This document shows, piece by piece, positions 8,445-49,665 of a stretch of DNA of 64,000 nt. Both the position numbers and the translations under genes were made by a program. The DNA is taken from NCBI RefSeq assembly GCF_002854065.1, contig NZ_CP024147.1. One strand, written 5' to 3'. Numbering within the stretch: position 1 is the stretch's first letter; each line of letters starts with the position of its first letter. The notes below the pieces were generated by a model that saw only the letters and a program-made list of their open reading frames with translations, ran no database searches and had not been told where the DNA came from. Source of the stretch: Escherichia coli (GTDB taxonomy: Bacteria; Pseudomonadota; Gammaproteobacteria; Enterobacterales; Enterobacteriaceae).

Positions 8445-8458
8445 TCGGAACATTAATA

Positions 8459-25806: not shown

Positions 25807-27079
<1,273 letters not shown>

Positions 27080-28414: not shown

Positions 28415-28423
28415 AAACCCTCC

Positions 28424-29695: not shown

Positions 29696-29733
29696 AAACG
29701 GGTTCTCCGTTTTTTATCATTGAATGGTTTTAA

Positions 29734-30309: not shown

Positions 30310-30346
30310 TGTTCTCCTGTCATGCGGAACGCAGCATAACGATAGT

Positions 30347-31165: not shown

Positions 31166-31225
31166 AGATAAAGCTCTCCATTGCGGTTACCGGGAGCTAC
31201 AGGGGAAAATATGCTCCCTGTTTTC

Positions 31226-33238: not shown

Positions 33239-33454
33239 AATATTAAGCTCCCCTGAGGTAATAAACGCCCGTGTGGCAGCGGTTCAACATAATGCCAGAT
33301 AGGCCAGGGATAGGGGAGCTTCAGTTTTTCGGCTTCTGAATTGAGAACTTTAGTGAATGGGGTGATAGAGGATATCGCTTGAATTGTGCCGAGTCTAATG
33401 GTGCTTTAAGGATTGGGATATCGGGAAAGGTGTAGCTTAATTGAATGGGTTGTA

Positions 33455-33733
33455 TCAATGACCGCGTGAATCGGCAATGCGTTGCTGTAACCATAATTCG
33501 ACTTCACTTTTCTTCCAGCGGGAGCACCGGCCCAGCTTAATTGGCTTCGGGAACAGTCCGTCTTTTATCAACTTATAGAACCATTTATCCGTCAGCCCCG
33601 TTAGCTTTGTGATGAAGCGCATATCCACCAGTTGGTCATCAAGCAAAGAAATTTGTTCTGTCATGATGCTGTCTTCCATTGTGGGATTATCCTGAGCTGG
33701 TGGTTGATTGCTCGTTACTACCAGCCCTTCCAC
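33455..33733 (-). CDS. AlpA-family phage/island transcriptional regulator
   Basis: HTH-containing C-terminus (ITKLTGLTDKWFYKLIKDGLFPKPIKLGRCSRWKKSEVELWL); the true start may be the internal Met near 33664. Confidence 0.7.
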   Translation of the reverse strand: MEGLVVTSNQPPAQDNPTMEDSIMTEQISLLDDQLVDMRFITKLTGLTDKWFYKLIKDGLFPKPIKLGRCSRWKKSEVELWLQQRIADSRGH

Positions 33734-33771
33734 ATCAATGGATTGATACGTAAAAAAGTGCAGAACGTGAG

Positions 33772-34350
33772 TTATAGTGAGCGAGGACGCCCCAGTCCGC
33801 TGGGCGGCGGTACCTCACTGGCTCCGTAGTGATAGTGACCGTGCTTTTGCTCTTCTTTGGCAAGGTAGCTGATGATGTAGCGCAGGTTATCGATGGCTTC
33901 GGTATCATCGTAGTTCACCGGCTTATCAATACTGACGTCATAAGTAGGTTTGTATTCGCAGCGGTTGTAATAGCCTTCTCGTTGCGTTATTTCCCGCCAT
34001 ATTGTTCCGACTCTCTCAGCTATTGGGTAGGTAGCCTGGTTAAGGTGCCTGTCGAGATAGAACACGATATGAGCATGGCAGCCGTGGTCTACAGAGCTCT
34101 CCAGTACCCAGAAATACCCTGCCAGATTTGTGTGCTGCAGGGTGCGTTCAACCAGCATGCGTACCTCTCGCTCTGTTTCGTTCCATGAATGACGTTTAAA
34201 GCGCTCTGTACCTTTCTGATAGAACAGGTCGAGTCGGAGTGCCTGTATTTGGGAATATCGGTTCAGTAGCTGATTCAGGTGGTCATTGAGTAGAGACAGT
34301 AGAAACCAGTTCATCGTGTATCTGGGGTTAAATGGGTAAGGTGTATGCAT
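33772..34350 (-). CDS. Inovirus Gp2-family protein (island backbone)
   Basis: Family recognised from the conserved core (HAHIVFYLDRH); start uncertain, the longest ORF extends to 34539. Confidence 0.5.
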   Translation of the reverse strand: MHTPYPFNPRYTMNWFLLSLLNDHLNQLLNRYSQIQALRLDLFYQKGTERFKRHSWNETEREVRMLVERTLQHTNLAGYFWVLESSVDHGCHAHIVFYLDRHLNQATYPIAERVGTIWREITQREGYYNRCEYKPTYDVSIDKPVNYDDTEAIDNLRYIISYLAKEEQKHGHYHYGASEVPPPSGLGRPRSL

Positions 34351-34755
34351 TGATTTATCCTTTGTCAGGTGGAGTACAAAGGATTGGGATGGGATGTAAT
34401 TTTTAAGAGAAGCAGAGATACAGGGAACTGCGTATCCAGGGGAATACAGGCAGGGTTGCTTGTTGGGGAAGGGGCTATGAACAGAGTGGTATAGAAACAG
34501 GGAGTCCCCCTTAATTATACTAAAAACCCAAATGTTCATATCTGCTGTTGAACGATGCTAATGAGGTGAGCACAGGAGGATTGTAGGGTGAAAACAACAG
34601 GAATAATGCAGTAAAATGTCAGGCTTTTATCACAATTAAATCAGTAGGATATCAGTAAAAAATCAGCCATTCCTCAGCCTGTGACCCACCTCCCTCTACC
34701 TAAAAGATGCTCATGCTAATCTGTGTTCAGGAGCCAGAATTAGAGGGAGGAGACG

Positions 34756-35673
34756 ATGTTGCATTACGATATGATCCGCTATGAAATAATGTACCTAAAA
34801 ACGCTGGACAGGCATTTCAATACAGATCACTCGTTACTGTGCAGTACTTATGATAGGCCCGATGATTTTCGACGCTTGATCTCTCAGATACTTGAACGGC
34901 ATTTTCTTGGCGATCAGGACAGAATCAAAATTGCGCGGAAAACACTTAAAGAATGGGCTGACCTGCAACTGATTGATAAAGAATATTTTGATTGTTTCAA
35001 AGGCACACCAAGAGCATCGTGGTTTGCTCACCATTATATTTTTGAATACCCAGTATTACCTGCAGGGTTGAAACTTGGTGGGTTGGGGAATGACGTCGGT
35101 TGTTCAGGTGGTTTTAATTCTCTTTTAATGAACGATAATATCTTCACAAATCTTGATTTCTCTAATTTGAATATCGACCTGGACGATATAGATTGGGACC
35201 TGATAACAAATCCACAGGCCACTGCTTCGAAAAAAACGAAACGCGTTTTCTCCCGATTTTATCTGAACGCGGGAGCAAGTACCGATCTGTACAACCCCAC
35301 TCCGGTAACTGAGCGTGAACTCATCAATGGTGTGATGAGGTACATTGATGAAGCACCATGCTCACTTGGAGATAAGATCACTTATTTCAAAAAACTGCAT
35401 GAGCGCTGGCTTGAGCAATATGATTTTTTTCTAACAGATTTTGACTGGATGTCACGTGATGATGAAACTCAGTTAGTATATCTCTGGGACTATCTCAAAG
35501 GAAAGGGACGAATAGCGAGCTATCTTCGCCCTTATAATACGTCTATGCGTTATGACATGATTATTGCGGCTATGGATGTGTGGAACGCCCAACCTGAAGA
35601 GAAGCTGGAGTTTATTGAGAAGATGAAACATGCCTGGCAGGCAGCGAAATCTTACCGGAAATCTGCTAAATAG
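34756..35673 (+). CDS. Hypothetical protein
   Basis: 305 aa ORF with no recognised motif; reasonable coding length and context. Confidence 0.35.
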   Translation: MLHYDMIRYEIMYLKTLDRHFNTDHSLLCSTYDRPDDFRRLISQILERHFLGDQDRIKIARKTLKEWADLQLIDKEYFDCFKGTPRASWFAHHYIFEYPVLPAGLKLGGLGNDVGCSGGFNSLLMNDNIFTNLDFSNLNIDLDDIDWDLITNPQATASKKTKRVFSRFYLNAGASTDLYNPTPVTERELINGVMRYIDEAPCSLGDKITYFKKLHERWLEQYDFFLTDFDWMSRDDETQLVYLWDYLKGKGRIASYLRPYNTSMRYDMIIAAMDVWNAQPEEKLEFIEKMKHAWQAAKSYRKSAK

Positions 35674-36035
35674 CGTTGTGATCGCAGTGATGTCTTGGTC
35701 TGATTTCTCAATGTAGTCATGAATCTGAGTCGACCCAGGGTCCTCTAACTATCTTTTCCTTGTCCCGTTAGGTACAAGCACATACTGTTAAAGATTAATA
35801 TGGCGGGGTATGGACGTCGGAGCTATGCCTACCTTTTAGATCGTTTGCTTCTGACTCGAAGCTTACAAGCTAGCTGATCTGAAGGTCCACTGTGAGCGAG
35901 GAGCGGACACCACGACTCACCAATAACTTGCTGCCCGCTTACGACCCAAAACCACCTATTGTATGTTAATTAATCTAGCAAACAAATGTTTAGCTTTTTA
36001 TCCGGCGAATGAAGCAAGAGAAATTGAACCCATTG

Positions 36036-36512
36036 CTAAGTATTACTGGGATTATTAAAAGGGATAATACTGGCCAATCCGTCATCTACATCAAGACCAT
36101 AGGCAACTGCTATTTCTGCCACAGAGGTACCACACTTTTTTCGCAGTTTAAAAAGCGCTCGCTCAAGCATAGATACTTGCACAGGATGATCAAATCGGAT
36201 GAACTGAGGGGAGCCAACACTGTCACCGAATTCTTGGCATGCCTTTCTCATTTTCCTTAATTGATTTGCTAAATATGAATCGCTCGGTAAACCTTGTAGG
36301 ATTTTAGTCAATTCAGATCTAATGCTGATAACACTCTGAATGCAATGACTAGTATCCTCCATATCGACAGGATTGAAAAGAACTCGCTTGTCCTCAAGAA
36401 AAATGACGATCTTCTTCGCTTCGTCAGCTTCTATTATTGGAGCATTCCACTGAATCCCGAATATAGGGCAGCTAAGGCCTGTAATATTTTTATAGATTCG
36501 TTCAAATTTCAA
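36036..36512 (-). CDS. Hypothetical protein
   Basis: 158 aa ORF convergent with the preceding gene; no recognised motif. Confidence 0.3.
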   Translation of the reverse strand: MKFERIYKNITGLSCPIFGIQWNAPIIEADEAKKIVIFLEDKRVLFNPVDMEDTSHCIQSVISIRSELTKILQGLPSDSYLANQLRKMRKACQEFGDSVGSPQFIRFDHPVQVSMLERALFKLRKKCGTSVAEIAVAYGLDVDDGLASIIPFNNPSNT

Positions 36513-37085
36513 AACTCACTCCTTTGATGGACACATAACGCCTATACAGTCATGATGAGAAACGGACTCGGTTCGAGTAATCTGTTAGATAGCATCACTC
36601 GTAACTACTGTAAAAATAGTTGCTATCATGCTTATTGTCACTATAAATATTACTTAATGTCAGTCAGTTAAGAACGATTATTATCCCCCACAATATAAAA
36701 TGTGTGTGGGGGCTATTTTTTCCAAGAGGTAGGCTTCATCAAAGATAAACTACATGAGAAGAACGCCTTAACTTGCTCAAATGGATTGTGTTACAACAGT
36801 CTTGGTAACGTTTGCTATTGGCACATAGCGGGTCTTCAACCCAGTTAGCTCGCCCATTCTGTGCAAGTAGTGGACAATGAATGAAAAGATATTGGGTCGG
36901 ATTAACCTTGCGAAGGCCATCTAAGTCTGTGACGAACATTTCTTCAAGCATCTGAGGCCCTCAGCTCGCACCTAGAATTTTAATTTTGATGCATTTTGCC
37001 TTAGCTTGAGCATTGGAATGTGGCCTGATAACCGGTGTTTTCTTTTACTGGCCGTCCACAGACTCGATGACGCATTTATTCCCGA

Positions 37086-38903
37086 CTACCTTAAACCTGC
37101 CCCTCTCATTCGCTCCTCCAGTTCATCCAGAAATGGGGAACGCCCTAGACGCATAGGGCCGTAGCGACCATCAACAAAACCGGAATACAGCATATGCACC
37201 TCGTCCCGTGCGCGGGTCAGCCCCACATAGAAAAGACGTCGGCTTTCACGCAGCTTCTCTGGCGTCTCATTACGCCACGGCAAATTCCCCAGATCTAAGC
37301 CGACCATGATAACCACGTCATATTCGCAACCTTTGGCTGAGTGAAGTGTCAGCAAATTGAGGTGCTCAGGTGAACCGTCACGACCACCTAGGCTCGTGAT
37401 ATCCAACATCGCTAACGCACCGCCTTCGGCAAGTGCTGCAGTCATGCGATCTAGTTGCTCAGCCTGATCAGAAAGCGTTGGTTCAGTTGCCAGCAGGGAA
37501 TCAACGAGACCGTTGCGCAACGACGCGACAAAATCGGATGCAGAATGTTGGTCGGCACGAAGTGCCCAAAGTAGCCTGGTTAACTCCTGCCCCTTACTCC
37601 GGGCGCATGCATCATCCAGCCTTGCCCGATGAAATGCCAGATAACGGTCTATAAGTCCGCGCAGTTGAGGGCGCCCGATACGCCAACCGCCAGCACACCA
37701 TGCTGCGCAATCCTCCACCCAGCTCGTCAAGGCAACTTTGCGATAAGGTGCTGCGGTATCCACACGAATGTAATCAAAACCGCTAGCTGTCACCGCATCG
37801 GCCACAACATCGCCGGCACGGTAGTCCTTGTACAGAATGGCGATATCACCCAGTGTTCGGCCCGGCTTAGCAGCCAACGCAGCAGGAATAATCTGCTCGA
37901 CAGCATAGACAGCCTGATCCCCCAAGCCATCCGGACACAGCTGGAACGCAATGGTTGTCTGGCGGTTTGGGTCGTTTGCGCGATAACCACGAACCTCACC
38001 CAACACCATCTCCGATGCATTCACGATGTCCGCTCCTGATCTATAGTTCAACTGGAGCCGGACTGTTTCAACGTCTCTCCTGCCTGCCAGTTCTAGTAGT
38101 AACGCACCATCGGCACCAGTGAAACCGTAAATAGATTGGTCTGCATCACCCACTGCAAATAAGCGTACGCCTCCCTCGAAAGCCAGACGTTTGACCATAC
38201 GATGGAGTGCCACGCCCAAATCTTGATATTCATCTACCGCAAGGATCGGAAATTTCGCCTGTACTAGGGGCAGAACCCAATCATGCTCAATTATCAGACG
38301 CTGACCAAATATCACCATATCGTCGTAGTCTATCAGCCCTTGCTGCCGCAATGCAGCTTCGTAGGCCTCGGCCCATGCAGCGAGTTCCTCCTCTGTACGC
38401 CAGGCAACGCTGTTGCGATTCAACACCGAACGGCGATGCCGTCCGAGATCAATAGCCTTATAGGGATGGTTTGCGCCAAAGAGACGGTCACCAGATTGTC
38501 GAAGTAACCGTTCGCTCTCGCGCTGAGACGCTACTGACAGCGGAAATGGGATTGGCAGATCGGCCAGTCGCCCATAGGGCATCAACAGATGGCGCAAGCA
38601 GAACCCATGAACGGTTCCAATAAAGAGATTCGGTGCCTCTCTAAGCCCCAGCGCTTCGAGACGACGGGTTAGCTCGCGTGCGCATTCTTGGCTATATGTG
38701 ATACATGCCGCACCACGTGGAGCTTGAACATCCTCAGCTAGGATTCGTGCCAGCTTCAGCACAAGCGTCTTTGTCTTACCACTCCCCGGGCCCGCGAGCA
38801 CCACGCAGTGTCCCTGGGAGTGATACGCGGATAACTGGCCCGGATTCCCGGCCAGCTCGGCAGCCTGAGCTAAGTAGGCTGCACTGACACTACGTGACGG
38901 CAT
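37086..38903 (-). CDS. gajB: UvrD/PcrA-family SF1 helicase, GajB-like
   Basis: Motifs VLAGPGSGKTKTL (Walker A), ILAVDEYQDLG (motif II), AVGDADQSIYGFTGA (motif III); start set at the ATG overlapping the upstream gene by 14 bp. Confidence 0.7.
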   Translation of the reverse strand: MPSRSVSAAYLAQAAELAGNPGQLSAYHSQGHCVVLAGPGSGKTKTLVLKLARILAEDVQAPRGAACITYSQECARELTRRLEALGLREAPNLFIGTVHGFCLRHLLMPYGRLADLPIPFPLSVASQRESERLLRQSGDRLFGANHPYKAIDLGRHRRSVLNRNSVAWRTEEELAAWAEAYEAALRQQGLIDYDDMVIFGQRLIIEHDWVLPLVQAKFPILAVDEYQDLGVALHRMVKRLAFEGGVRLFAVGDADQSIYGFTGADGALLLELAGRRDVETVRLQLNYRSGADIVNASEMVLGEVRGYRANDPNRQTTIAFQLCPDGLGDQAVYAVEQIIPAALAAKPGRTLGDIAILYKDYRAGDVVADAVTASGFDYIRVDTAAPYRKVALTSWVEDCAAWCAGGWRIGRPQLRGLIDRYLAFHRARLDDACARSKGQELTRLLWALRADQHSASDFVASLRNGLVDSLLATEPTLSDQAEQLDRMTAALAEGGALAMLDITSLGGRDGSPEHLNLLTLHSAKGCEYDVVIMVGLDLGNLPWRNETPEKLRESRRLFYVGLTRARDEVHMLYSGFVDGRYGPMRLGRSPFLDELEERMRGAGLR

Positions 38904-40674
38904 CGCAGATATACTCCAGTGCTTCACGAATGTAATCCGGGCATACATCCTCCGACACCGAGGGTGCCAGCGCTTGGGCGAACCGCCCTTTGCCAATTCG
39001 CTCAATCAGTTTCAACAACCGGACATTATCAAGCTGGTCCGTGTCATCCACCCACGCCTGTATCCTGTTCAGAGTAGCTCGTCTAGGAGACAATTCCTGC
39101 TCGATAACCAACTTCATGGCTTCGCCCAGTCCACCGGTAAACAGCTCTGGCTCCAGAGTGGTCTCATTGACGAAGCATCCAAAATCTCCGGCACGTGCAA
39201 TCACCTCCTCGGTAGTCATATCATCATGATCAACATCGCTCTCAAGCACGTCTAAGATATTGATAAATCTCTTACGAACCAGCGGCTCTCCATCCTCCTC
39301 AGGATCGCGGTCTGTCAGAATCACATGTGGAATATTGAGTCCCCGCGGCCCTAGGAGCTTCACATACGGAGTGAAATTTGTTCCACCGATCGAGCACACC
39401 GTGATCCCAAGCATATCTAGGGGAATATTAAGAGCATCAGCGAATGCTGGGACAAGAAAGCGTTCAGCATCCCCTTCCACCAAGATCACCCCACGTGAAA
39501 AGAATATTTCGCCGCGAGTGACATCGATATAGCGCTGCAGATCATCTTCGTCCCGCGGCGTAAACGGTGCGTTTGCCGTTGAAACCGCAATCGTCTTCCC
39601 TCCCTCCGGATCATGGCGCAGCAAAACGATGGATCTGATTGGTGTGACGCTGGCGATATGCGGGGAATGGGTGGTCAGGATCGTTGTCAACGGTGTTCCT
39701 TCATCACCATTGTCTCCGTCAGTCCCTAGGAAATAACGGTAAACCAGGCGCTGTACGTGCGGATGTAGGTGCGCTTCCGGCTCCTCGACTACGAAAAACG
39801 TATGGTCTCGTTCTCCGTCATTAACAAGACGATCAAGTTCGAGGCTTTTTAGGGCAAGAAAAATCAGATTAGCTGTCCCCAGACTGGCATCGCCAATGCC
39901 ACGAATGCCACTATCAAGCAGCAAACGCAGGCTACGTAGCAGCGCATCAACGCGAGTCGGTGCAAGTCCGAGCGATACCGGAACGGCATGTTGCTCACCT
40001 GCGATAGCTATCAACCTTTCGCTAATTCGTTCGGCTGTCGCTGCCACCTCATCATGATCAGCCAGTTCCCGTTGAGCCTCATCAACTTGGGTTTGAATCT
40101 CCTCACGAGTCTCGTCGTCCAGAGATGCGGACAGTTCTTCAATAAGCGGTCTTAAGGGTGAATTACGCCAGCTTGAAAGGTCCTTCTCGGCATCACGCAA
40201 CGCGCCTTGAACATCAATGGGCAACATACGGCGAAAGGCACCACCAATATGCATGTCAGGATCAGCTCCACCGAAGATCACATACTCATAATCTTTTAAC
40301 GATTCAGGAGCTCGATTTAACGCGGTTTTGGGCTGAAAGCGGTAGGTAAGACGGGCCACCATCGGAGGCCCCGGATTTAGGACACAGTCATTCAGATGAG
40401 CCATCAATCGGGGATCGTCAGTGAACTCAGTAAGATCCACTGAAATTTCGATGGTCTCCCCCAGTTTGTCTTCGCCCAATCCATCCCAAAAATGTTCAAA
40501 ACCCAGTTGACGGTCACGCTCAGACAACCCTGGGTCAAGAATCAGCTGCAGGCCGCGAATAAAATTGCTCTTGCCAACCTTGTTTTCACCAACAATAACA
40601 ATACTCTCACCCGTTTCAACATCAACATCGGAGAAGTTGGCGAAATTAATTAACCGGATTCGGGAAATCCGCAT
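38890..40674 (-). CDS. gajA: OLD-family ATPase with C-terminal TOPRIM nuclease domain, GajA-like
   Basis: N-terminal ABC ATPase (IRLINFANF, GENKVGKSN, VVEEPEAHLHP, LTTHSP) and C-terminal TOPRIM (VILVEGDAERFLVPAF). Confidence 0.7.
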   Translation of the reverse strand: MRISRIRLINFANFSDVDVETGESIVIVGENKVGKSNFIRGLQLILDPGLSERDRQLGFEHFWDGLGEDKLGETIEISVDLTEFTDDPRLMAHLNDCVLNPGPPMVARLTYRFQPKTALNRAPESLKDYEYVIFGGADPDMHIGGAFRRMLPIDVQGALRDAEKDLSSWRNSPLRPLIEELSASLDDETREEIQTQVDEAQRELADHDEVAATAERISERLIAIAGEQHAVPVSLGLAPTRVDALLRSLRLLLDSGIRGIGDASLGTANLIFLALKSLELDRLVNDGERDHTFFVVEEPEAHLHPHVQRLVYRYFLGTDGDNGDEGTPLTTILTTHSPHIASVTPIRSIVLLRHDPEGGKTIAVSTANAPFTPRDEDDLQRYIDVTRGEIFFSRGVILVEGDAERFLVPAFADALNIPLDMLGITVCSIGGTNFTPYVKLLGPRGLNIPHVILTDRDPEEDGEPLVRKRFINILDVLESDVDHDDMTTEEVIARAGDFGCFVNETTLEPELFTGGLGEAMKLVIEQELSPRRATLNRIQAWVDDTDQLDNVRLLKLIERIGKGRFAQALAPSVSEDVCPDYIREALEYICDAVT

Positions 40675-41229
40675 TACTGCCTCCCTATCTTTTTAATTAT
40701 CTTCCCAAAATAAGAGTAGAACTCAAACCACAAGAGACTGCCTGGCACGACCAAATTTGCTGAGGGATACGGTTGCGATCAGAACGGTACTTGGTCATTG
40801 CACATTTTTTACTGTTCAAATCTATGCGTCCAACGAAGGTAACAACCTATCGTAACAGAGAGCTAAAACATGCCTATGATCCATCTCACATAGTGGCTGT
40901 TTGTCGTCACAGTCTTACAATGCACTCTGTGCAATGCATTACTCCCATTGGCCGACCAGACCGATGAACTGGCACGGCGGTGTGCTTCACACACTCTAGC
41001 GATACGGCACAATATCAACAGACACTGACTGGCCTCGTCAAAATAGTACAGTACAGACTTAGCACCGTCTGACTTTGGCGCTAAGCGGAGATCTTTCAGT
41101 CTTGGACTGCACAAAGTCCTTTGCGTTAATCTAAAATTCCAAATAATTTCAGACAGATATTATCTCATTGAATCCCCGCCTTCCTGACTGGATCGCGGGG
41201 TTTTTAATTTTTCACGCTGAGACTTCTGT

Positions 41230-42105
41230 ATGAATAAACCTGACGGCCTTCAGGCCTTTGAACAACCGCTTGCGTCGCTTCCGTGCACACTTCGCCAGCT
41301 TATTCTTGAACGTATCCAGAACCTGACCCATTACGAGCCGGTGATTGGAATCATGGGCAAAAGTGGTACAGGTAAATCCTCTCTCTGCAACGAACTTTTC
41401 CGGGGCGAGGTGTCCCCGGTGAGTGACGTGAATGCCTGTACTCGCGACGTGCTGCGTTTCCGGTTACGCAGTGGGCGTCACAGCCTGGTGATTGTTGATT
41501 TACCGGGCGTGGGCGAAAACGGGCAGCGGGATCAAGAATACCGTGCCCTGTACCGTCGAATCCTGCCGGAGCTGGACCTGGTGCTGTGGGTCATTAAGGC
41601 CGATGATCGGGCACTAACCGTGGACGAGCAGTTCTGGCACGGTGTGATGCAAACTTACAGGCAAAAGGTACTGTTCGTGATTAACCAGGCCGACAAAATC
41701 GAACCCTGCCATGAATGGGATACCCTCACCAGCAAACCTTCACCGCACCAACTGGGAAATCTTAAAGCGAAGCAGGCTGCGATTATGGTGATGTTTAAAC
41801 CGCATCATCCGGTCTGTGTGGTGTCAGCCCGCACTGGATGGGGCATTGAGGAGATGGTGGCAGCCATGATGCGCTGTCTGCCTGACCGCGCCACCAGCCC
41901 GGTGGTGACACAACTGCACAGGAAACTCTGCACAGAGCCGGTAAAGTCGCAGGCTCGTGACAGTTTCGGTGAAGCTGTGGGCCGGGTTTTCGATACCGCA
42001 GAATCATCTTCGTTCCTGTCTACATCGCTGAAAACGGTGATTCGTAGCGTGCGTGATGCGGTGGTGTCGGTCGCACGGGCCGTCTGGGACTGGATATTCT
42101 TCTGA
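41230..42105 (+). CDS. YfjP/YkfA-family GTPase (prophage CP4-57-like)
   Basis: G1 motif GKSGTGKSS, DLPG, NQADK. Confidence 0.75.
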   Translation: MNKPDGLQAFEQPLASLPCTLRQLILERIQNLTHYEPVIGIMGKSGTGKSSLCNELFRGEVSPVSDVNACTRDVLRFRLRSGRHSLVIVDLPGVGENGQRDQEYRALYRRILPELDLVLWVIKADDRALTVDEQFWHGVMQTYRQKVLFVINQADKIEPCHEWDTLTSKPSPHQLGNLKAKQAAIMVMFKPHHPVCVVSARTGWGIEEMVAAMMRCLPDRATSPVVTQLHRKLCTEPVKSQARDSFGEAVGRVFDTAESSSFLSTSLKTVIRSVRDAVVSVARAVWDWIFF

Positions 42106-42348
42106 TATCGCAATTTTCTCTGCGAATGATGAACTTGTTGTTAATGATGTGTTGATTGTGGACACGTCCTTTCCATTGCGTTTTATCATCAACAAAATCA
42201 GGAGAAGCATCATTATCTGTCAGACGAGCGCTCACAAGGCCGGGCTGCTCATAAAAAATAGTTCCGATGTTGTCCATACCCTGTCCACCCCTTCCTTTAA
42301 AGTAATCATTATTAATTCAGAGAGTTAACTTCTCAGGAGAAATCTTTC

Positions 42349-43065
42349 ATGACGCTTCAGGAGCGGCGACATGACCGGCTTGCCGTCAGGTTGTCGTTGA
42401 TTATCAGCCGCCTGGTGTCCGGTGAAACTCTGTTTATTCGCAAACTGGCAACTGAATTCGGGGTGTCAGAGCGCACGTTACGTCGTGACTTTCGGGAACG
42501 TCTGATGTATCTCGACCTGGATTATTACCAGGGGCAGTGCAGTCTGCGCTCGGATATTCACAGTACGCGGCAGGAAATAGATATTCTGACCTTTGCTCAC
42601 CGTACGGGGCTGGCCGGGGTTTTCCCGGGCTTTGACCGGCGACTGGTCAGCAGCCTGCTGGACTGTGATGATCGACCCTGTCTGGTATGGCATCAGGACA
42701 GACCTCATCCCCCGGCAGGAAAGCTCTCCTTCTACAGGCTGGTCAGAGCTATTTCTGAATGTCAGCGCATCACCATTCTGACTGAAGGGGAGCGTCATGA
42801 GGCCGTTGCACCTTACCGGCTAATCGCTCTGGACGGTTACTGGTATCTGGTCGCTGAACATAACAGGCAATTACGTGTCTTCCGGCTGGATGAGATTCAT
42901 CTGGTAAGGCCATCGCGGGAAACATTTATTCGCAGTGAGCTTCTCTATCAGCTGTCGGAGGATAAACATTTTATCTCTGCCTTACCTCATTTCCGTTTTA
43001 TTCAGCAGTCGCTGAATTCATTTTCTCCCTCAGAAAGTCGGGGGCAATCCGGACAAACTGATTAG
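42349..43065 (+). CDS. WYL-domain transcriptional regulator (YfjR-like)
   Basis: N-terminal HTH ([14 protein letters not shown]) and WYL-like region (DGYWYLVA). Confidence 0.65.
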
Positions 43066-43100
43066 AGATGGTCTCCATAATTAAATGTAAGGTTAATCTA

Positions 43101-43553
43101 ATGAAAGAATTGAAATTGTTGTCTTTACTGCCAGTCATATTGTTCCCCTTACTTATCGCAGGTAATGCTCACGCAGCACGTCCTTATAGCGGATTCCTGC
43201 CTGCAGCAGTGAATAATAAGAGTGGGAATATATTCTGGTGTGATGCCCACCGCCAGGTCAGAAAACTGTGTACAGCGACGGAAGTGGATTCAATGGGATG
43301 GTTTATTGTTGTTCGCTCGAAACCTTCCAGAGATTGTCCGGGGGGCCTTTGGGGGTGGATCACTCCCAGTAAAGACGATGTAGCAACAGGGTATACCATT
43401 ACGCCAGGTAAAGAATTCAATCTCACCATGAAGGATATGTGCAGTCCCGATATGAAAGTAACGTTCCGCCCGAATAAAAAGGACCCTCGTTATGACGATC
43501 TCGTCGGGATTTATGCAGGGAAAGAAGCTTTTCGCTACAAACAAATAAAATAA
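43101..43553 (+). CDS. Lipoprotein/secreted protein (YfjS-like)
   Basis: Signal peptide MKELKLLSLLPVILFPLLIAGNAHA. Confidence 0.5.
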   Translation: MKELKLLSLLPVILFPLLIAGNAHAARPYSGFLPAAVNNKSGNIFWCDAHRQVRKLCTATEVDSMGWFIVVRSKPSRDCPGGLWGWITPSKDDVATGYTITPGKEFNLTMKDMCSPDMKVTFRPNKKDPRYDDLVGIYAGKEAFRYKQIK

Positions 43554-43624
43554 TCCAACTGTTTTTTCGTTACTTTATTGTTTTAAACAACAAAAGCCTT
43601 ATTACATGATTTGAGGACAACATT

Positions 43625-44098
43625 ATGCGACTGCCTTACGTAATATTTACATTAGCTATGCTGGCTTCTGTATCAACAGCACAGGCTATTCCCAATATGT
43701 GGACGAGTGGTTTTGGGATGGGCGTGACCGAATATATTATTACCAGCCCGGAGAAGGTGGTGTTTAATCTGAACTGTACTGGCAATCCGGATGCGCAGAA
43801 TATTCTGCAACACGGTGTTGATCTCACCCTGCCTGATGGAACATCAGTAAGCTCTCATGACGACGGAACGGAAATCACGGTCGTCATGGATAACAGTCAG
43901 TATCCGTTACCGTCATTCCTCGGCTGGCGAAACGGTGACAATGCCTGGGTGTCATTTATTGACGCCCTGAGCCAGTCTGCGAATTTTGATGTTTACGTCA
44001 ACGATAAAAAAGTCGGCACCTTCAGTCCGGGGCTGAAGAATACGCAGAAAGAGCTGTCTGACCTCAGTGAGTGCCGGACCACACACTACAGCGATTAG
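43625..44098 (+). CDS. Secreted protein (YfjT-like)
   Basis: Signal peptide MRLPYVIFTLAMLASVSTAQA. Confidence 0.5.
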   Translation: MRLPYVIFTLAMLASVSTAQAIPNMWTSGFGMGVTEYIITSPEKVVFNLNCTGNPDAQNILQHGVDLTLPDGTSVSSHDDGTEITVVMDNSQYPLPSFLGWRNGDNAWVSFIDALSQSANFDVYVNDKKVGTFSPGLKNTQKELSDLSECRTTHYSD

Positions 44099-44218
44099 TT
44101 ACTTACATTTCAGACCTCTCCAGCCCGCTACGCACCAACACCAGATAGCAACAGGCCATGCTCCTTCGGGAACATGGCCTTTTTTGTTTTTATTTGATTA
44201 TCAGATAAGGAGTTAGCT

Positions 44219-45040
44219 ATGCGACTAGCCAGCCGCTTTGGCCGTATAAACCAGATACGCCGTGACCGGCCTCTGACCCACGAAGAGCTGATGAGTCATG
44301 TACCCAGCGTGTTCGGGAGTGACAAGCATGAATCTCGTTCAGACAGGTACACCTACATCCCGACCATCACCATCCTCGAAAGCCTGCAGCGGGAAGGCTT
44401 TGAGCCGTTCTTTGCCTGCCAGACAAAAGTTCGCGACCAGAGCAAGCGGGAGCACACCAAGCACATGCTTCGACTGCGTCGCTCCGGGCAACTGACCGGG
44501 CATCAGGTGCCGGAAATCATTCTACTTAACAGCCATGACGGCTCATCAAGCTACCAGATGCTGCCGGGCCTGTTTCGTGGCGTCTGTACCAACGGCCTGG
44601 TCTGCGGTCAGTCATTCGGAGAAGTGCGGGTACCGCATAAAGGGAATGTTGTCGAGAAGGTGATTGAAGGGGCTTACGAAGTGCTCGGTGTGTTTGACCG
44701 GGTGGAGGAGAAGCGCGATGCAATGCAGTCACTGGCACTGCCAGAACCAGCCCGTAACGCCCTGGCGAATGCCGCGCTGAAGTATCGCTTTGGTGAAGAC
44801 CACCAGCCGGTCACGGTATCGCAGTTGCTGACCCCACGTCGCCGGGAGGACTACAGCGATGACCTGTGGACCGTATACCAGCGCGTGCAGGAGAACCTGA
44901 TGAAAGGAGGTCTGTCAGGGCGAACCGCTCAGGGGAAAAGCAGCCGCACCCGTGCTGTTATCGGCATTGACGGCGATGTGAAACTCAATCGCGCCCTGTG
45001 GATTATGGCAGAAAACATGCTCGAATTTTTCGGGCGTTAA
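44219..45040 (+). CDS. DUF932-family protein (YfjQ-like)
   Basis: 273 aa; matches the remembered CP4-57/CP4-44 family and gene order. Confidence 0.6.
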   Translation: MRLASRFGRINQIRRDRPLTHEELMSHVPSVFGSDKHESRSDRYTYIPTITILESLQREGFEPFFACQTKVRDQSKREHTKHMLRLRRSGQLTGHQVPEIILLNSHDGSSSYQMLPGLFRGVCTNGLVCGQSFGEVRVPHKGNVVEKVIEGAYEVLGVFDRVEEKRDAMQSLALPEPARNALANAALKYRFGEDHQPVTVSQLLTPRRREDYSDDLWTVYQRVQENLMKGGLSGRTAQGKSSRTRAVIGIDGDVKLNRALWIMAENMLEFFGR

Positions 45041-45070
45041 ACAACCGTTCCGGCATAAGGAGATAGTTTA

Positions 45071-45511
45071 ATGGATACCCACAACCCTGAGTTTGCTGAG
45101 CAGGCAGCAATTACTGCCTCGGTAGTCCCTGACGAGTTACGTATCGGCTTCTGGCCAAAGCGCTTTGGATCTATCCCACAATGGATAACCCTTGAGCCCC
45201 AAATATTTGGCTGGATGGATCGTCTGTGCGCTGATTACAGCGGCGGCGCCTGGAGCTTTTACACACTCAGCAACGGCGGCGCATTTATGGCTCCGGAGCC
45301 CGACGGTGAGAAGTGGACGTTGTTCAACCCGATGAATGGAAACGATGCGGAGATGAGCGGAGAGGCTGCCGGTATAGCGGCCTGCCTGATGGCATACAGC
45401 CACCACGCTTGTCGCACCGAATGTGACGCGATGACTGAGCACTATTATCGCTTACGTGACTACGCGCTAAACCATCCGGAATGCAGCGCCATTATGTATC
45501 TAATCGACTGA
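45071..45511 (+). CDS. Antirestriction protein, ArdB/KlcA family (YfjX-like)
   Basis: 146 aa; family call from the conserved core (FYTLSNGGAFMAPE). Confidence 0.65.
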   Translation: MDTHNPEFAEQAAITASVVPDELRIGFWPKRFGSIPQWITLEPQIFGWMDRLCADYSGGAWSFYTLSNGGAFMAPEPDGEKWTLFNPMNGNDAEMSGEAAGIAACLMAYSHHACRTECDAMTEHYYRLRDYALNHPECSAIMYLID

Positions 45512-45523
45512 GGAATACCTGAC

Positions 45524-46066
45524 ATGAATATCGCATTATCCCCGGTATCATCGCAGCCTGAACTCTTTCCGCTGGCGGTTATGGCCCAGCATAGTTGCCT
45601 GCTCCCCGCGACCTCCGGATTGACACCTTATGCCCAACGGACCATTCGACGTGCTATCAACCTGCTGGATAAATATCTGCGCCAGCCCGGCATGTCCTTT
45701 ACCTCAAGCACGGCTGCCCGTGACTGGCTTCGGTTACAGCTGGCAGGACAAGAACGGGAAGTGTTTATGGTGCTCTATCTCGATAACCAGCACCGTTTAC
45801 TGGAGAGTGAAACGCTATTTGCCGGTTCGGTTAACCATGTCCAGGTCCATCCCCGTGAGGTGGTGAAGTCAGCGCTTCGCTTCAATGCTGCTGCTGTTGT
45901 GCTGGCGCATAACCATCCATCCGGTGATCCGGAGCCCAGCCAATGTGACCGCAACATTACGGGCAGGCTTAAAGAAGCGCTGGCACTGGTTGATGTGAAC
46001 ACTCTCGATCATCTGGTTATCGGTTCAGATGGAATTGTGTCGTTTGCAGAGCGAGGCTGGATATGA
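45524..46066 (+). CDS. RadC-like JAB/MPN domain protein (YfjY/YeeS-like)
   Basis: JAMM motif HNHPSGDPEPSQCD. Confidence 0.8.
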   Translation: MNIALSPVSSQPELFPLAVMAQHSCLLPATSGLTPYAQRTIRRAINLLDKYLRQPGMSFTSSTAARDWLRLQLAGQEREVFMVLYLDNQHRLLESETLFAGSVNHVQVHPREVVKSALRFNAAAVVLAHNHPSGDPEPSQCDRNITGRLKEALALVDVNTLDHLVIGSDGIVSFAERGWI

Positions 46067-46076
46067 GGGCACTTCA

Positions 46077-46418
46077 ATGAAATCTACTGACTCAGAGAAC
46101 GATTCATTTCTCAAGTGGGGTCTGAATCGTAATGTGACACCTTGCTTTGGCGCTCGTCTGGTACAGGAGGGAAACCGGCTGCACTATCTGGCTGACCGGG
46201 CCAGTATCACCGGTAAGTTCAGCGAAGCAGAATGTCTTAAGCTGGATATGGCATTCCCGCATTTTATTAGCCAGATGGAATCGATGCTGACTACTGGTGA
46301 AATGAATCCTCGCCATGCCCACTGTGTCACCCTGTACCACAATGGTTTCACCTGCGAAGCCGATACCCTTGGCAGTTGCGGCTACGTATACATCGCCGTT
46401 TACTCCACCCATCGTTAA
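46077..46418 (+). CDS. Type IV toxin-antitoxin antitoxin, CbeA/YeeU/YfjZ family
   Basis: Conserved [22 protein letters not shown]...CGYVY region. Confidence 0.8.
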
Positions 46419-46438
46419 CTACTTTCACAAGAGCAAAT

Positions 46439-46780
46439 ATGAAAACTCTACCTGCAACAAATCCGCAGGCGGCGAAGCTATGTCTGTCGCCCGTGGCTGT
46501 CTGGCAAATGCTGCTTGCACGCCTGCTGGAACAACATTATGGCCTGACACTCAACGACACGCCATTCAGTGATGAAACGGTAATTCAGCAACATATCGAT
46601 GCCGGTATATCTTTGGCCGATGCCGTTAATTTTCTGGTGGAAAAGTACGGGCTGGTTCGTATTGATCGCAGGGGATTCGACTGGCAAGAACAGTCCCCAT
46701 ATCTGCGGGCAGTCGATATTCTGCGGGCGCGACAGGCAACTGGTTTATTGAAAAGAAATCGTATTAGCGCGGCACGGTGA
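46439..46780 (+). CDS. Type IV toxin-antitoxin toxin, CbtA/YeeV/YpjF family
   Basis: 113 aa immediately downstream of the CbeA-like gene. Confidence 0.75.
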
Positions 46781-47043
46781 ATATTGGGAATAGCCTTCCT
46801 GATTCACACTGCAGCTTTCCTTACTTATTTAATTTACTCATTCCAAAAAGCACCTGCCGATGCTGGTTGGTGCTTTTACTTATATGGACGAAATATCATG
46901 CAAATAGAAGCTGTAATTTTAACTGGGCACATTATCGCAAGTACAATCCGGGAATGCTGGGCCGTCGTTGTTGATGGTTTTGACGCATGCGGCGAACAAG
47001 CTTATGATCCAGCTTAATTTCTTTTCCTCATGAAGGGACGGGT

Positions 47044-48051
47044 ATGGGCAACAGAATGTGGATGATTCGCGGTGACGGCGGCAAGCTCTATGACGATTTT
47101 CGCGATAAGCAAATTGTAGGCATCGGTTGGTCTCAGCTGGCTCCATTAGTCAAACCCGGCCTGTCCCGAGCCCAGTTACTCGCCTTATACCAGGAGGCAG
47201 ATCCCTTAACAAAGCTGGGAACAGCCCGTTCTGGTGCATCGCAGGTCTGGCGTTTTGTGAATGAGATCCAAAAGGGTGATTGGGTTATTACCTATTCGCC
47301 AGCCAACCGTACTTATTTGCTAGGCAAAGTCACATCCGACTTCCAATATCATCCTGAATGGGTGGAAGAGGGGATGGGGATCGCTCGGCAGGTTAAATGG
47401 AATACTCAAGAAATCGACCGCGATAGACTGTCTGTTGCTACCAAAAACACATTGGGTTCTACGCTGACGGTTTTTCAGCTTCCAGAATATGCGCTAGAAG
47501 AGCTTTTGCAGGATAAGAAACCCACTATAGATGTAATTACTCAGAATCCAGTTGCAATGGATGAAGATGAGGTCGTTTCTGATCCGCTTCGCGATATGGA
47601 AATGCTGGCGTTTGAGGGTATCAAAGATCGTATTAACTCTCTTGATTGGGACGAGATGCAAAATCTTGTTGCCGGAGTTTTACGCAGTATGGGCTATAAA
47701 ACGCAGGTTTCACCTGCGGGAGCCGATCGGGGTAAAGACATCATTGCTTCACCTGATGGGTTCGGTTTTGAAAATCCGCGTATTATCGTTGAGGTAAAGC
47801 ACCGCAGGGAACAGATGGGAAGCCAACAGATACGCAGCTTTATCGGCGGTCGCCATAAAGACGATCGCGGGCTTTATGTCAGTACAGGGGGTTTTACGAA
47901 AGATGCTCGATATGAAGCCGACCGTTCGACGATACCACTGACGCTCTGGACACTTGATGATCTCGTCCGTGCGCTTATTGAGAACTACGAACAAGTTGAT
48001 ATCGAGACTAAACTTTTGGTGCCTCTGAAGAAAACTTTCCTGCCTGCCTGA
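47044..48051 (+). CDS. Mrr-like restriction endonuclease (Mrr catalytic domain) with an uncharacterised N-terminal domain
   Basis: C-terminal core GADRGKDIIA...RIIVEVKHRR...GLYVSTGGFTKDA resembles the Mrr catalytic domain. Confidence 0.6.
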   Translation: MGNRMWMIRGDGGKLYDDFRDKQIVGIGWSQLAPLVKPGLSRAQLLALYQEADPLTKLGTARSGASQVWRFVNEIQKGDWVITYSPANRTYLLGKVTSDFQYHPEWVEEGMGIARQVKWNTQEIDRDRLSVATKNTLGSTLTVFQLPEYALEELLQDKKPTIDVITQNPVAMDEDEVVSDPLRDMEMLAFEGIKDRINSLDWDEMQNLVAGVLRSMGYKTQVSPAGADRGKDIIASPDGFGFENPRIIVEVKHRREQMGSQQIRSFIGGRHKDDRGLYVSTGGFTKDARYEADRSTIPLTLWTLDDLVRALIENYEQVDIETKLLVPLKKTFLPA

Positions 48052-48211
48052 ATCTTGCTTTGATAGCCATATCGGTGTTCTACTGGTATGGCTTTATACC
48101 CACTTGCAATGTCTATTTTTTATACGGACTTTAACTTGTGGGTACAAGTGTGGGTATAACTATTTATTCCTATTTATAAACTGCATTGATATCAGTCTGT
48201 TAGGTGTGAAA

Positions 48212-48430
48212 TTCGAGTCCGGCCTTCGCACCTTCGCACCTTCGCACCATCGGAACATCAATAGACATCAACGGACGTTTTTTTATGACTGAAATCCGCG
48301 CCACACAAGGCTTTTCGCTATTTTTCGCTCAACCTAAGTCAACCTACATCAACTTACTGATGTGGATACAGCTACAGCTGCGGCTATACCCCGATTCGAT
48401 AATGTTTGTACCCACACAAAACCCTTGAAA
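48212..48430. repeat. Partial direct repeat of the leuX 3' end plus integrase-upstream region (island right boundary / older att site)
   Basis: About 220 bp imperfect direct repeat of 8422-8640 (shared strings ttcgagtccggccttcg..., ...cggttcgataatgtttgtacccacaca.aacccttgaaagg). Confidence 0.75.
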
Positions 48431-49014
48431 GGCTACAAGGCTGAAATTGTCTAAACCATAGAGATGATTTTTATGATCCAGTCTTTCTCTTGTTGAGATA
48501 GTTCCAGTTTGCTCACTCGTGTTAAGAAGGTATTGATCACCTGAACATCCGAATTGGTGAGCCTATTTAATAGAGCGGGTGGTATACCTTTACTAACAAT
48601 CGCTTTGCGGTGACTTTCGTAGTTTTTATTACTCATTGTTGATCCTAAAAAATCATTGTATGGCGGCATTGATCGTTTCCAGCAACCTTTACTTACTCAC
48701 TTCGAACTGCATCCTCGTAGACTGTTCCACTACAATAATCGAAAAGGCGCGGATGTCCATTCAGGTATCCCGCTAATACGTATAGCAATAACAATGGCTT
48801 ATGCGGCGCGCGCTGTTCACCCTTGTGCCAGATTTTTATATTGGCAATTGCCTGCTGTAGCGATTTACTGGAAGCTATTGATATCCCTGGCAGTGAAATA
48901 ATTGCGATCATGCTCGCAAATTTTCTGCTGTTCAAGCCTGCAAGTGAAGATATATTACCTTGATCTCATTTGTTTTTTTGCTGCCTGTTCTGAGAACGTA
49001 TAAGGACATTCTCC

Positions 49015-49665
49015 ATGAATAAACTCCCTGATCATCTTCCGCGGCGGTATATCATCGAAGCTATCCATTTATGGGATGCGGGAGAAACTCATCAGTTCCA
49101 GCCTGCGCGGTTGTATGAGATTGAATATCATGGCCGACGTTACCCCTCGAAGGCGATTGCTGGCATCGCAGCGACATTGATGACGGGGACGCAATTTACC
49201 CCTGCGGATTTCACCGGCGGAATAAAATCTAAATGTGTCAAGCTACTCATAGAGCAGGGATTTCATATTCATCTGGATAAAGCCGCTGCGGCTCCCATAG
49301 CCGACGTTCTGTTCCCGGATGAGTTGCCGTCGCAGGAGACATACCTTGAAGGTGCGGCGATAAAGGTGACAGTAAACCGCTATGAACGCGATAAAAAGGC
49401 CCGAGATAAAGCGGTCGAACATCATGGATGCCAGTGCAACGTATGCGGTGTTGATCTGGTGAAGATCTATGGTGATATCGCTGAAGGCTTTATCCATGTG
49501 CATCACCTGGTGCCGCTGTCAGCCATTAAAGAGGATTACCAGCTGGATCCAGTTAATGATTTGCTGCCTGTGTACCCTAATTGCCATGCGATGTTGCACC
49601 GACGCAAACCACCGTTTACGCCGGAGCAGTTAAAAGCGCTGATGGATGCGAATAAATCAAATTAA
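49015..49665 (+). CDS. HNH endonuclease, possibly a modification-dependent restriction enzyme
   Basis: C-terminal HNH motif CQCNVCG...HVHHLVPL...NDLLPVYPNCHAMLH. Confidence 0.55.
   Translation: MNKLPDHLPRRYIIEAIHLWDAGETHQFQPARLYEIEYHGRRYPSKAIAGIAATLMTGTQFTPADFTGGIKSKCVKLLIEQGFHIHLDKAAAAPIADVLFPDELPSQETYLEGAAIKVTVNRYERDKKARDKAVEHHGCQCNVCGVDLVKIYGDIAEGFIHVHHLVPLSAIKEDYQLDPVNDLLPVYPNCHAMLHRRKPPFTPEQLKALMDANKSN

What the first reader, a model, noticed from the sequence alone, without database searches (positions are those of the whole stretch)
48212..48430. Second, integrase-less att/leuX-3' copy marks a decayed older island
The repeat extends about 190 bp beyond the tRNA 3' end and covers the integrase upstream region up to the position of the integrase start codon, after which the sequences diverge. 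It also contains a local triplication (cttcgcac three times in tandem) where the first copy has a single unit. This looks like the left end of a previously resident leuX element whose integrase was lost, with the current island inserted in tandem.
Basis: seen in the sequence. Interest (0 to 1): 0.5.

Follow-up and report, generated by a model that had tools for sequence, protein, structure and literature searches.

The report
Integrase-less leuX attachment-site relic
The second leuX-like repeat is the leftover left end (core plus integrase-side arm) of an earlier P4-family island that lost its integrase; it bounds the present 40-kb defence island and recurs in about 13% of complete E. coli genomes, an ordinary case of islands stacking and decaying at a tRNA hotspot.

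Summary
Window 8422-8637 and 48212-48436 are homologous: 185 of 206 aligned bases match, against about 46% in the flanks. Homology ends 6 nt before the integrase ATG (8643).

Copy 2 has the layout of a P4-family attL: tRNA 3' core, terminator, arm-type repeats, integrase-proximal inverted repeat. No integrase follows it. The same layout lies between tRNA-Leu(CAA) and a P4-like integrase in about 60 of 80 loci from other Enterobacterales species. So it belongs to the element, not to the chromosome.

- About 110 island-free E. coli genomes show the native flank, which resembles copy 2 for only about 60 bp.
- About 700 of 5426 complete E. coli genomes carry copy 2, to the right of unrelated elements.
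- The older island's own right end is gone, and no intact relative was found.

Copy 2 lacks one G of the tRNA end, and that 8-bp unit (TTCGCACC) varies from 2 to 4 or more copies. The same deletion recurs in displaced leuX ends elsewhere and is unexplained. Integrase-mediated excision should therefore leave a broken leuX, as published for UPEC 536. This is a new member of a known kind, of modest interest.

The parts
8360..8444 (+). leuX, tRNA-Leu(CAA), intact. Its last 20 nt (8425-8444, GAGTCCGGCCTTCGGCACCA) equal the annotated phage P4 attP core.
   Evidence: ARAGORN. P4 record NC_001609, core annotated at 4078-4097.
8422..8438 (+). Copy 1 of the exact 17-bp direct repeat TTCGAGTCCGGCCTTCG, the attL core of the present island.
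8445..8642 (+). P' arm of the present island (leuX-integrase spacer). It holds the terminator hairpin 8458-8475 plus T-run; four 10-bp TCAAY repeats 8526-8565; tandem arm-type repeats TGCGGGTACAAC/TGCGGGTATATC 8568-8591; and an inverted arm-type repeat TTTGTACCCACA 8606-8617.
   Evidence: Sequence. Terminator scan. Same layout as the annotated P4 attP arm repeats. Motif conserved in 83 loci.
8643..9899 (+). P4-family tyrosine integrase of the present island (418 aa).
   Evidence: NCBIfam NF007246, 1.3e-77. Annotated integrase in strain VTB96935v.
8445..48211 (+). The present ~39.8-kb leuX island. It carries type I RM, a Septu-like pair, pAgo plus REase (split by an IS), Gabija, a CP4-type right-hand module and a PDC-S02 candidate REase.
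   Evidence: 99.7-99.9% identical to the island of strain VTB96935v apart from one insertion. PADLOC hits.
48137..48160 (+). P arm of the present island: tandem arm-type repeats TGTGGGTACAAG/TGTGGGTATAAC, 54 nt left of the core. P4 has 53 nt at the same place.
   Evidence: Sequence. P4 annotation. The same P arm occurs in Erwinia, Rahnella and Buttiauxella loci.
48212..48228 (+). Copy 2 of the 17-bp repeat, the attR core of the present island. Identity with the tRNA stops after CTTCG.
48225..48248 (+). TTCGCACC x3: an 8-bp tandem repeat built on the one-G-deleted tRNA 3' end. It is polymorphic, with 2, 3 or at least 4 units among genomes.
   Evidence: VTB96935v, L011 and L080 have 4.
48249..48436 (+). 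Relic P' arm of an earlier P4-family element. The terminator hairpin is weakened by a 2-nt deletion, one TCAAY repeat is lost, and the tandem arm-type repeats are mutated (TGTGGATACAGC, +TACAGC, TGCGGCTATACC; 48361-48390). The inverted repeat is intact (48405-48416).
   Evidence: Pairwise alignment. No terminator call here. This arm type was found only in E. coli relics.
48437..48737 (.). 300 bp of unknown origin between the relic arm and the restriction-enzyme fragment. It contains an orphan 72-aa ORF (48451-48669, minus strand) and may be a remnant of the older island's interior.
   Evidence: Homologues are only E. coli hypothetical proteins of 61-72 aa. Found in ~970 genomes, always in this context. 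Absent from the native flank.
48738..48887 (-). N-terminal fragment (~50 codons) of a phosphorothioated-DNA-binding restriction endonuclease. This marks the distal end of the deletion that removed the older island.
   Evidence: NF045808, 1.7e-16, profile positions 2-45 of 284. Annotated as a pseudogene. Full-length in 536 and APEC O1.
49015..49665 (+). HNH endonuclease (216 aa, ScoMcrA_N domain), native neighbour of nanS.
   Evidence: Annotation. Pfam PF26345.

Best explanation
Copy 2 (48212-48436) is a fossil attL. It is the displaced leuX 3' end plus the integrase-side (P') arm of an earlier P4-family island that once sat directly on leuX.

Proposed history (order of events inferred):
1. The earlier island integrated at leuX.
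2. One or more deletions removed its integrase, its body, its own right end and about 4 kb of native flank, ending inside a restriction-endonuclease gene.
3. That left leuX, the relic arm, 300 bp, the REase fragment, HNH and nanS.
4. Later elements integrated at the leuX core. Each came to lie between leuX and the relic, so the relic became the constant right border.
5. In this window the occupant is a 39.8-kb defence island with an intact integrase.

How the site works now:
- The functional tRNA 3' end and terminator at 8439-8482 are supplied by the present island (inferred).
- Copy 2 holds the displaced end, which has lost one G and expanded into an 8-bp repeat (shown).
- Comparison across genomes places the crossover within CCGGCCTTCG, to the left of that defect (inferred from the sequence comparisons).
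- Integrase-mediated excision would therefore join the leuX body to the defective end and break the tRNA (predicted, not tested here).
For: Homology:
- It extends ~190 bp past the tRNA at 90% identity and stops 6 nt before the integrase ATG.
- The architecture matches the annotated P4 attP: core, two tandem arm repeats on each arm at near-identical distances, and an inverted repeat at the integrase start.

The arm belongs to the element:
- The motif TTCGATAATGYTTGTACCMACA was found in 83 loci, 80 of which were analysed (about 75 species).
- In about 60 of the 80 it lies ~150 bp after tRNA-Leu(CAA).
- In about 70 of the 80 it lies 36-47 bp before a full or partial integrase 72-97% identical to the window's.

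The native flank differs:
- About 110 island-free E. coli genomes (APEC O1 type) share only the ~60-bp terminator segment with copy 2.

The relic is independent of the occupant:
- The same relic lies to the right of CP4-like islands, true P4-like satellites and this defence island.
- Homology breaks exactly at 48212.
- About 700 of 5426 genomes carry it.

The integrase and the older island are gone:
- tBLASTn finds no integrase remnant downstream.
- The two tandem arm repeats are mutated and re-spaced.
- The REase gene is full-length in the native arrangement and truncated here.

Parallel cases:
- Buttiauxella sp. B2 (integrase absent) and Erwinia sp. ErVv1 (only the first ~16 integrase codons remain) each have such a second copy on the same contig as the leuX-attached copy.
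- Detached copies with a truncated or missing integrase also occur in Rahnella, Mixta and others.

Crossover position:
- The deleted-G and repeat state travels with the right flank, not with the element. 536 and L017 have the same P arm but different states.
- Host T-loop GATT against element GAGT places the crossover to the right of the T loop.

Excision outcome:
- PMC3202238 reports that re-integration of PAI II into the deletion mutant 536-21 restores the complete tRNA gene.
Against: - No intact element with this arm type (GCGCCACACAAGG...) was found in the 80 species loci analysed or in any fetched locus. The parent element is therefore inferred, not observed.
- No third core marks the older island's right end, so its former extent is unknown.
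- The 300 bp at 48437-48737 has no identifiable origin.
- P' arms are mosaics that reassort at a conserved joint. Part of copy 2 could therefore have been acquired by homologous exchange rather than by the original integration.
Confidence: 0.85

Rival explanations
1. The extended similarity is only the conserved native sequence downstream of leuX (terminator and flank). No older island is needed.
For: The first ~60 bp after the tRNA (hairpin, T-run, TGNCTGAAATC) are shared by the native island-free flank and all P' arms.
Against: - Beyond CTGAAATC the native flank is unrelated to copy 2.
- The remaining ~145 bp carry arm-type repeats.
- They also carry a motif that usually lies just upstream of a P4-like integrase in the 80 loci analysed from other Enterobacterales.
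Confidence: 0.03
2. Copy 2 belongs to the present island. It would be a duplication of the island's own attL region, made at or after integration.
For: Both copies flank the same island, and both have window-type arm repeats (GGGTAYA).
Against: - Copy 2 is 97-100% identical across hundreds of genomes whose islands are unrelated.
- Homology breaks exactly at the core.
- It differs from copy 1 by 10% and eight indels.
- The arm variant is not that of any integrase-linked copy seen.
Confidence: 0.03
3. The relic is kept because it is useful. The broken tRNA end and the arm would act as a one-way valve or landing pad: excision breaks leuX, so cells that lose the island are penalised and re-acquisition is favoured. 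This view is compatible with a fossil origin.
For: - All 40 detached copies sampled on the native E. coli flank carry a 1- or 2-nt deletion, and all 20 attached copies are intact.
- The same deletion is seen in 11 of 14 detached copies in the species scan and in 6 of 6 P4-like satellites in IMG/VR.
- No genome among 5426 shows the leuX-plus-repeat excision scar, and only one shows an empty relic site.
- Published leuX loss on PAI II excision and repair on re-integration.
- An analogous imperfect attR at pheV (PMC11537424).
Against:
- The arm repeats of the relic are degenerate, which argues against selection on the arm itself.
- leuX is not essential.
- Within E. coli the shared defect could be inherited once and spread with flanks by homologous recombination.
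Confidence: 0.15

Closest known systems
Phage P4 attP/attL at leuX (Pierson and Kahn 1987, recalled from memory; annotation of NC_001609)
   Same: - The same target tRNA and the same 20-bp core.
- The integrase lies next to the P' arm.
- Two tandem 12-bp arm repeats on each arm, 53-54 nt (P) and 112-123 nt (P') from the core.
- An inverted repeat at the integrase start.
   Different: - The arm-repeat sequence differs: GGGTAYA here against GGGGGCAY in P4.
- The arms do not align at the DNA level.
- Copy 2 has no integrase and has mutated repeats.
Right direct repeat of PAI II of UPEC 536, and leuX truncation on excision
   Same: - The same 17/18-bp repeat.
- The same position relative to nanS.
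- The displaced tRNA end is defective immediately after CTTCG.
- Excision is reported to leave an incomplete leuX that re-integration repairs.
   Different: - In 536 the repeat is followed by the native flank (ACCA, terminator, then unrelated DNA), not by a P' arm.
- 536 has a 2-nt deletion and no 8-bp repeat.
- There the PT-DNA REase gene is intact and the HNH gene is cut.
Tandem accretion and deletion of genomic islands (ICESt1/CIME of Streptococcus thermophilus, Pavlovic et al. 2004, as cited in PMC4891358; composite asn-tDNA islands of Klebsiella)
   Same: An island has integrated beside a resident one at the same tRNA site, and the resident then decayed by deletion.
   Different: - The relic here has lost its distal att site, so it cannot be mobilised in cis as a CIME can.
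- It is a scar of ~0.5 kb, not a cargo-bearing element.
Imperfect attR of pheV islands with P4-type integrases (PMC11537424)
   Same: The attR lacks one G just before CACCA (TTCGATTCCGAGTCCGG-CACCA), which is the same spot as in copy 2. The authors suggest imperfect repeats may stabilise islands.
   Different: - A different tRNA.
- No arm relic and no 8-bp repeat are reported in the passages read.

Membership tests
P4-family attL (tRNA-leuX core + P' arm + integrase) | The 20-bp core is identical to the leuX 3' end (GAGTCCGGCCTTCGGCACCA). | tested here: not met
   Copy 1 has 20 of 20. Copy 2 has the first 14 nt (17 counting TTC), then lacks one G and carries TTCGCACC x3.
P4-family attL (tRNA-leuX core + P' arm + integrase) | Arm-type repeats in the P4 arrangement: two tandem repeats plus one inverted repeat near the integrase start. 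| tested here: inconclusive
   Positions and repeat structure match P4 in copy 1. In copy 2 the inverted repeat is intact, but both tandem repeats are mutated and a 6-bp insertion separates them. Integrase binding cannot be tested with these tools.
P4-family attL (tRNA-leuX core + P' arm + integrase) | An integrase gene immediately follows the arm. | tested here: not met
   Copy 1 is followed by the integrase at 8643-9899. Copy 2 has no integrase similarity in 48200-54000 (tBLASTn).
P4-family attL (tRNA-leuX core + P' arm + integrase) | The arm sequence is element-borne: linked to the integrase across hosts and absent from unoccupied sites. | tested here: met
   Of 80 loci analysed, about 60 have tRNA-Leu(CAA) ~150 bp upstream and about 70 have a full or partial P4-like integrase 36-47 bp downstream. 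The island-free E. coli flank lacks the arm.
Tandem accretion of genomic islands | Two elements that use the same attB lie side by side, separated by an internal att core. | tested here: met
   Order in the window: leuX, island, core at 48212, relic arm. Analogous arrays occur in Erwinia ErVv1 and Buttiauxella B2.
Tandem accretion of genomic islands | A distal att copy closes the older element. | tested here: not met
   No third core in the window, even with 3 mismatches allowed. The deletion runs into the native REase gene.
CIME (cis-mobilisable element: att sites at both ends, no recombinase) | Two functional att sites flank the integrase-less element. | tested here: not met
   Only the proximal core remains.
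Native leuX downstream flank | Sequence identical to that of island-free genomes. | tested here: not met
   Only the ~60-bp terminator segment is similar. The rest is unrelated.

The most novel reading that the evidence does not exclude
The one-G deletion, and the 8-bp repeat built on it, may not be random decay. It sits at the right edge of the 10-bp segment (CCGGCCTTCG) to which the crossover can be confined.

It recurs at that same spot on at least a dozen different right flanks:
- 40 of 40 sampled detached copies on the native E. coli flank;
- 11 of 14 detached copies in the species scan;
- 6 of 6 P4-like satellites in IMG/VR, although phage P4 attP itself is intact;
- the same pattern is reported at pheV.

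The reading is that it marks the integrase cleavage site as a repair scar, or is selected in cis. Either way excision becomes rarer and destroys the tRNA, giving a 'tRNA addiction' that locks islands into hotspots.
Probability: 0.25. Interest if true: 0.55.

Novelty: new member of a known kind. Interest (0 to 1): 0.27.

Why it matters
- **Island boundaries.** In about one complete E. coli genome in eight, the 'chromosomal' side of the leuX attachment site is itself element-derived. Tools that look only for the short tRNA repeat or for an integrase will miss this.
- **Turnover at a defence hotspot.** P4 satellites, CP4-like islands and defence islands all land against the same fossil.
- **A testable prediction.** Integrase-mediated loss of this island should leave a non-functional leuX carrying the 8-bp repeat. 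This matches the classic observation in UPEC 536 and bears on island stability.
- **Overall.** The phenomenon itself, accretion and decay at a tRNA gene, is well established.

Tried and rejected
- **Intact parent of the relic.** The copy-2 arm signature occurs only in E. coli relics and one mis-binned MAG among all fetched loci.
  - The 72-aa ORF has only E. coli orphan homologues.
  - The 300-bp segment has no other context in 5426 genomes.
- **P4 homology at the DNA level.** BLASTN of the copy-1 region against phages found no P4. P4 attP against phages found only P4 records. The resemblance is architectural only.
- **600029-type attL as the relic's parent.** Megablast extended through it, but the alignment shows it is copy-1 type.
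- **HCP6S3_I1 as a simple site-specific excision product.**
  - Its first ~65 bp after the tRNA are K-12/536 type and the rest copy-2 type.
  - This is best explained by a deletion with its crossover in CTGAAATCC.
  - A naturally mosaic arm cannot be excluded, since L110 shows a similar joint.
- **Element-borne G deletion with a crossover in CACCA.** The repeat and deletion state follows the right flank, not the element.
- **Neutral decay as the cause of the G deletion.** This is considered unlikely. The other 19 core positions are almost always intact in detached copies.
- **Literature.** Full-text searches did not turn up a description of this relic arm.

Full report
**Locus.** The window is the E. 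coli yjgR-idn-ahr-leuX ... nanS-nanM-nanC-fimB region.
- ARAGORN finds one tRNA, leuX (tRNA-Leu CAA), at 8360-8444.
- A P4-family tyrosine integrase follows at 8643-9899 (NF007246, 1.3e-77).
- A ~39.8-kb island runs to 48211. Its closest relative is in strain VTB96935v, at 99.7-99.9% identity apart from one insertion.
- To the right of the second repeat lie 300 bp of unknown origin and a ~50-codon N-terminal fragment of a phosphorothioated-DNA-binding restriction endonuclease (minus strand).
- After these come an HNH endonuclease (49015-49665) and nanS.

**Observation.**
- The 17-mer TTCGAGTCCGGCCTTCG occurs exactly twice, at 8422 and 48212.
- A gapped alignment of 8422-8642 with 48212-48441 gives 185 matches, 21 mismatches and eight indels. 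This is 90% over aligned bases, against 46-47% for the adjacent 200 bp.
- Homology stops at 8637/48436, 6 nt before the integrase ATG.
- Copy 2 carries TTCGCACC three times (48225-48248). The unit is the tRNA's TTCGGCACC minus one G.

**What the 190 bp are.** Phage P4 integrates at leuX.
- Its GenBank record annotates a 20-bp core GAGTCCGGCCTTCGGCACCA, identical to the last 20 nt of leuX here.
- The record also annotates two tandem 12-bp arm repeats on each arm and an inverted repeat at the integrase start.
- The window has the same architecture with a different repeat sequence (GGGTAYA):
  - P arm 48137-48160, 54 nt from the core (P4: 53 nt);
  - P' arm 8568-8591;
  - inverted repeat 8606-8617, just before the integrase.
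- Copy 2 keeps the inverted repeat (48405-48416). Its two tandem repeats are mutated (GGATACA, GGCTATA) and separated by a 6-bp duplication. One of four TCAAY repeats is deleted, and the terminator hairpin is weakened.

**The arm belongs to the element, not the chromosome.** A scan of one genome per species found the motif around the inverted repeat (TTCGATAATGYTTGTACCMACA) in 83 loci, of which 80 were analysed.
- In about 60 of the 80 it lies ~150 bp after a tRNA-Leu(CAA).
- In about 70 of the 80 it lies 36-47 bp before a full or partial integrase 72-97% identical to the window's.
- Island-free leuX loci exist in about 110 of 5426 complete E. coli genomes (APEC O1 type).
  - There leuX is followed by a native flank that shares only the terminator segment (~60 bp, up to CTGAAATC) with the arms.
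  - It is then unrelated.
The distal ~145 bp are diagnostic of a P4-family element.

**The relic is older than, and independent of, the present island.**
- About 700 genomes carry copy 2 with the DNA to its right (723 with at least 80% of 47900-49700; 699 with the 89-nt core-proximal query).
- The relic-adjacent 300 bp occur in ~970 genomes, and the HNH region in ~3200.
- To the left of the core, these genomes have unrelated elements: CP4-like islands, genuine P4-like satellites (Psu/Delta/primase, with a P arm almost identical to P4's) and this defence island.
- Homology breaks exactly at 48212.
- Relic copies are 97-100% identical to one another but 10% and eight indels away from copy 1.
- tBLASTn finds no integrase remnant downstream, and no third core exists in the window.
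- In the native arrangement (536, APEC O1) the restriction-endonuclease gene is full-length and lies ~4 kb from leuX. Here only its first ~50 codons remain.
- The simplest history is integration of an earlier element at leuX, then deletion from its integrase start through its own right end into the native flank, then repeated occupation of the leuX core by later elements.
- K-12 lacks copy 2 and keeps only scraps of the REase and HNH genes before nanS.

**Parallel cases.** Detached core-plus-arm copies with a full, truncated or absent integrase occur in Xenorhabdus, Photorhabdus, Rahnella, Kluyvera, Morganella, Mixta, Buttiauxella and Erwinia.
- In Buttiauxella sp. B2 and Erwinia sp. ErVv1 the detached copy is on the same contig as the leuX-attached copy.
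- The Erwinia array has a P arm nearly identical to the window's.
- This is the published pattern of tandem accretion followed by deletion (Pavlovic et al. 2004, as cited in PMC4891358).

**Where recombination occurs, and its consequence.**
- The deleted-G and repeat state goes with the right flank, not with the element. The same P-arm type has ACCA on the native flank in 536 and the 8-bp repeat on the relic flank in L017.
- In genera whose leuX T loop is TTCGATT, the attached copy keeps GATT while the detached copy has the element's GAGT.
- The crossover is therefore confined to CCGGCCTTCG.
- Integrase-mediated excision should then join the leuX body to the defective end.
- This agrees with PMC3202238, where re-integration of PAI II into the deletion mutant 536-21 restores the complete tRNA gene.
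- Among 5426 genomes, none shows such a scar on the relic flank.
- A single genome (HCP6S3_I1) has leuX directly on the relic arm. Its first ~65 bp are K-12/536 type, so it is best read as a deletion with its crossover in CTGAAATCC. A naturally mosaic arm is not excluded.

**Unexplained.** The one-G deletion recurs.
- On the native E. coli flank, an evenly spaced sample of 335 genomes gave 20 of 20 attached copies full-length. All 40 detached copies were 1 or 2 nt shorter.
- In the species scan, 11 of 14 detached copies have it.
- Six of six P4-like satellites in IMG/VR have it on six different right flanks, although P4 attP itself is intact.
- The rest of the core is almost never altered.
- PMC11537424 lists the same defect at pheV (TTCGATTCCGAGTCCGG-CACCA).
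- Candidate explanations are an integrase cleavage-site scar, selection for cis-immobilisation or for a penalty on island loss, and, within E. coli only, inheritance with spread by homologous recombination. None was testable here.
- The 8-bp repeat varies from 2 to at least 4 units among genomes, consistent with replication slippage.

**Verdict.**
- The feature is a fossil attL of a P4-family leuX island and serves as the fixed right border for later islands.
- It is a new, well-populated example of a known process. Interest is modest, with one loose end (the recurrent G deletion) that could be followed up experimentally.

Noticed in passing
window 21182-22511: A 1330-bp insertion relative to strain VTB96935v, the size of IS2 and with a 301-aa ORF at 21595-22500, splits the class II pAgo gene of the island. 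The IS identity is inferred from size only; the ORF had no PADLOC hit.
   Followed up: partly
window 10230-24403, 37086-40674, 47044-48051: The leuX island is a defence island. It carries type I RM (hsdRMS), a PtuA/PtuB-like (Septu-like or PDC-M62) pair, pAgo with an Aga helical-REase partner, Gabija GajA/GajB, and a PDC-S02 candidate restriction enzyme as the last gene before the att core.
   Followed up: partly
window 48225-48249; loci L019, L024-L097, L107-L114: Displaced leuX 3' ends almost always lack one G (or GC) just before CACCA. This holds for 40 of 40 sampled on the native E. coli flank, 11 of 14 in the species scan, and 6 of 6 P4-like satellites in IMG/VR. tRNA-attached copies and P4 attP are intact. 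The same defect is tabulated for pheV islands in PMC11537424. The cause is unknown.
   Followed up: partly
L106 (APEC O1) 6461-11000; L019 (536): About 110 of 5426 complete E. coli genomes have an unoccupied leuX. The order there is native flank, a 587-aa hypothetical protein, a full-length PT-DNA restriction endonuclease, a truncated HNH gene and a truncated nanS. In the window the HNH gene and nanS are intact and the REase is truncated, so the two lineages decayed in complementary ways.
   Followed up: partly
window 8445-8500 and 48249-48300; L003, L020, L110, L111: P' arms are mosaics. Three terminator-segment types and at least four arm-segment types occur in many combinations, joined at the conserved TTTTTTTRTGNCTGAAATCC. 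L110 (IMG/VR) shows a third arm-repeat lineage (GAGTATA) with its own integrase, 72% identical over the 261 residues aligned.
   Followed up: partly
L003 (HCP6S3_I1) 3614-6265 versus window 513-8206: That strain lacks the idnK-idnDOTR cluster between yjgR and ahr, which is present in the window.
   Followed up: no
window 48451-48669 (minus strand): A 72-aa ORF in the 300-bp segment has homologues only among E. coli hypothetical proteins of 61-72 aa. It was not determined whether it is a gene or a chance ORF.
   Followed up: partly
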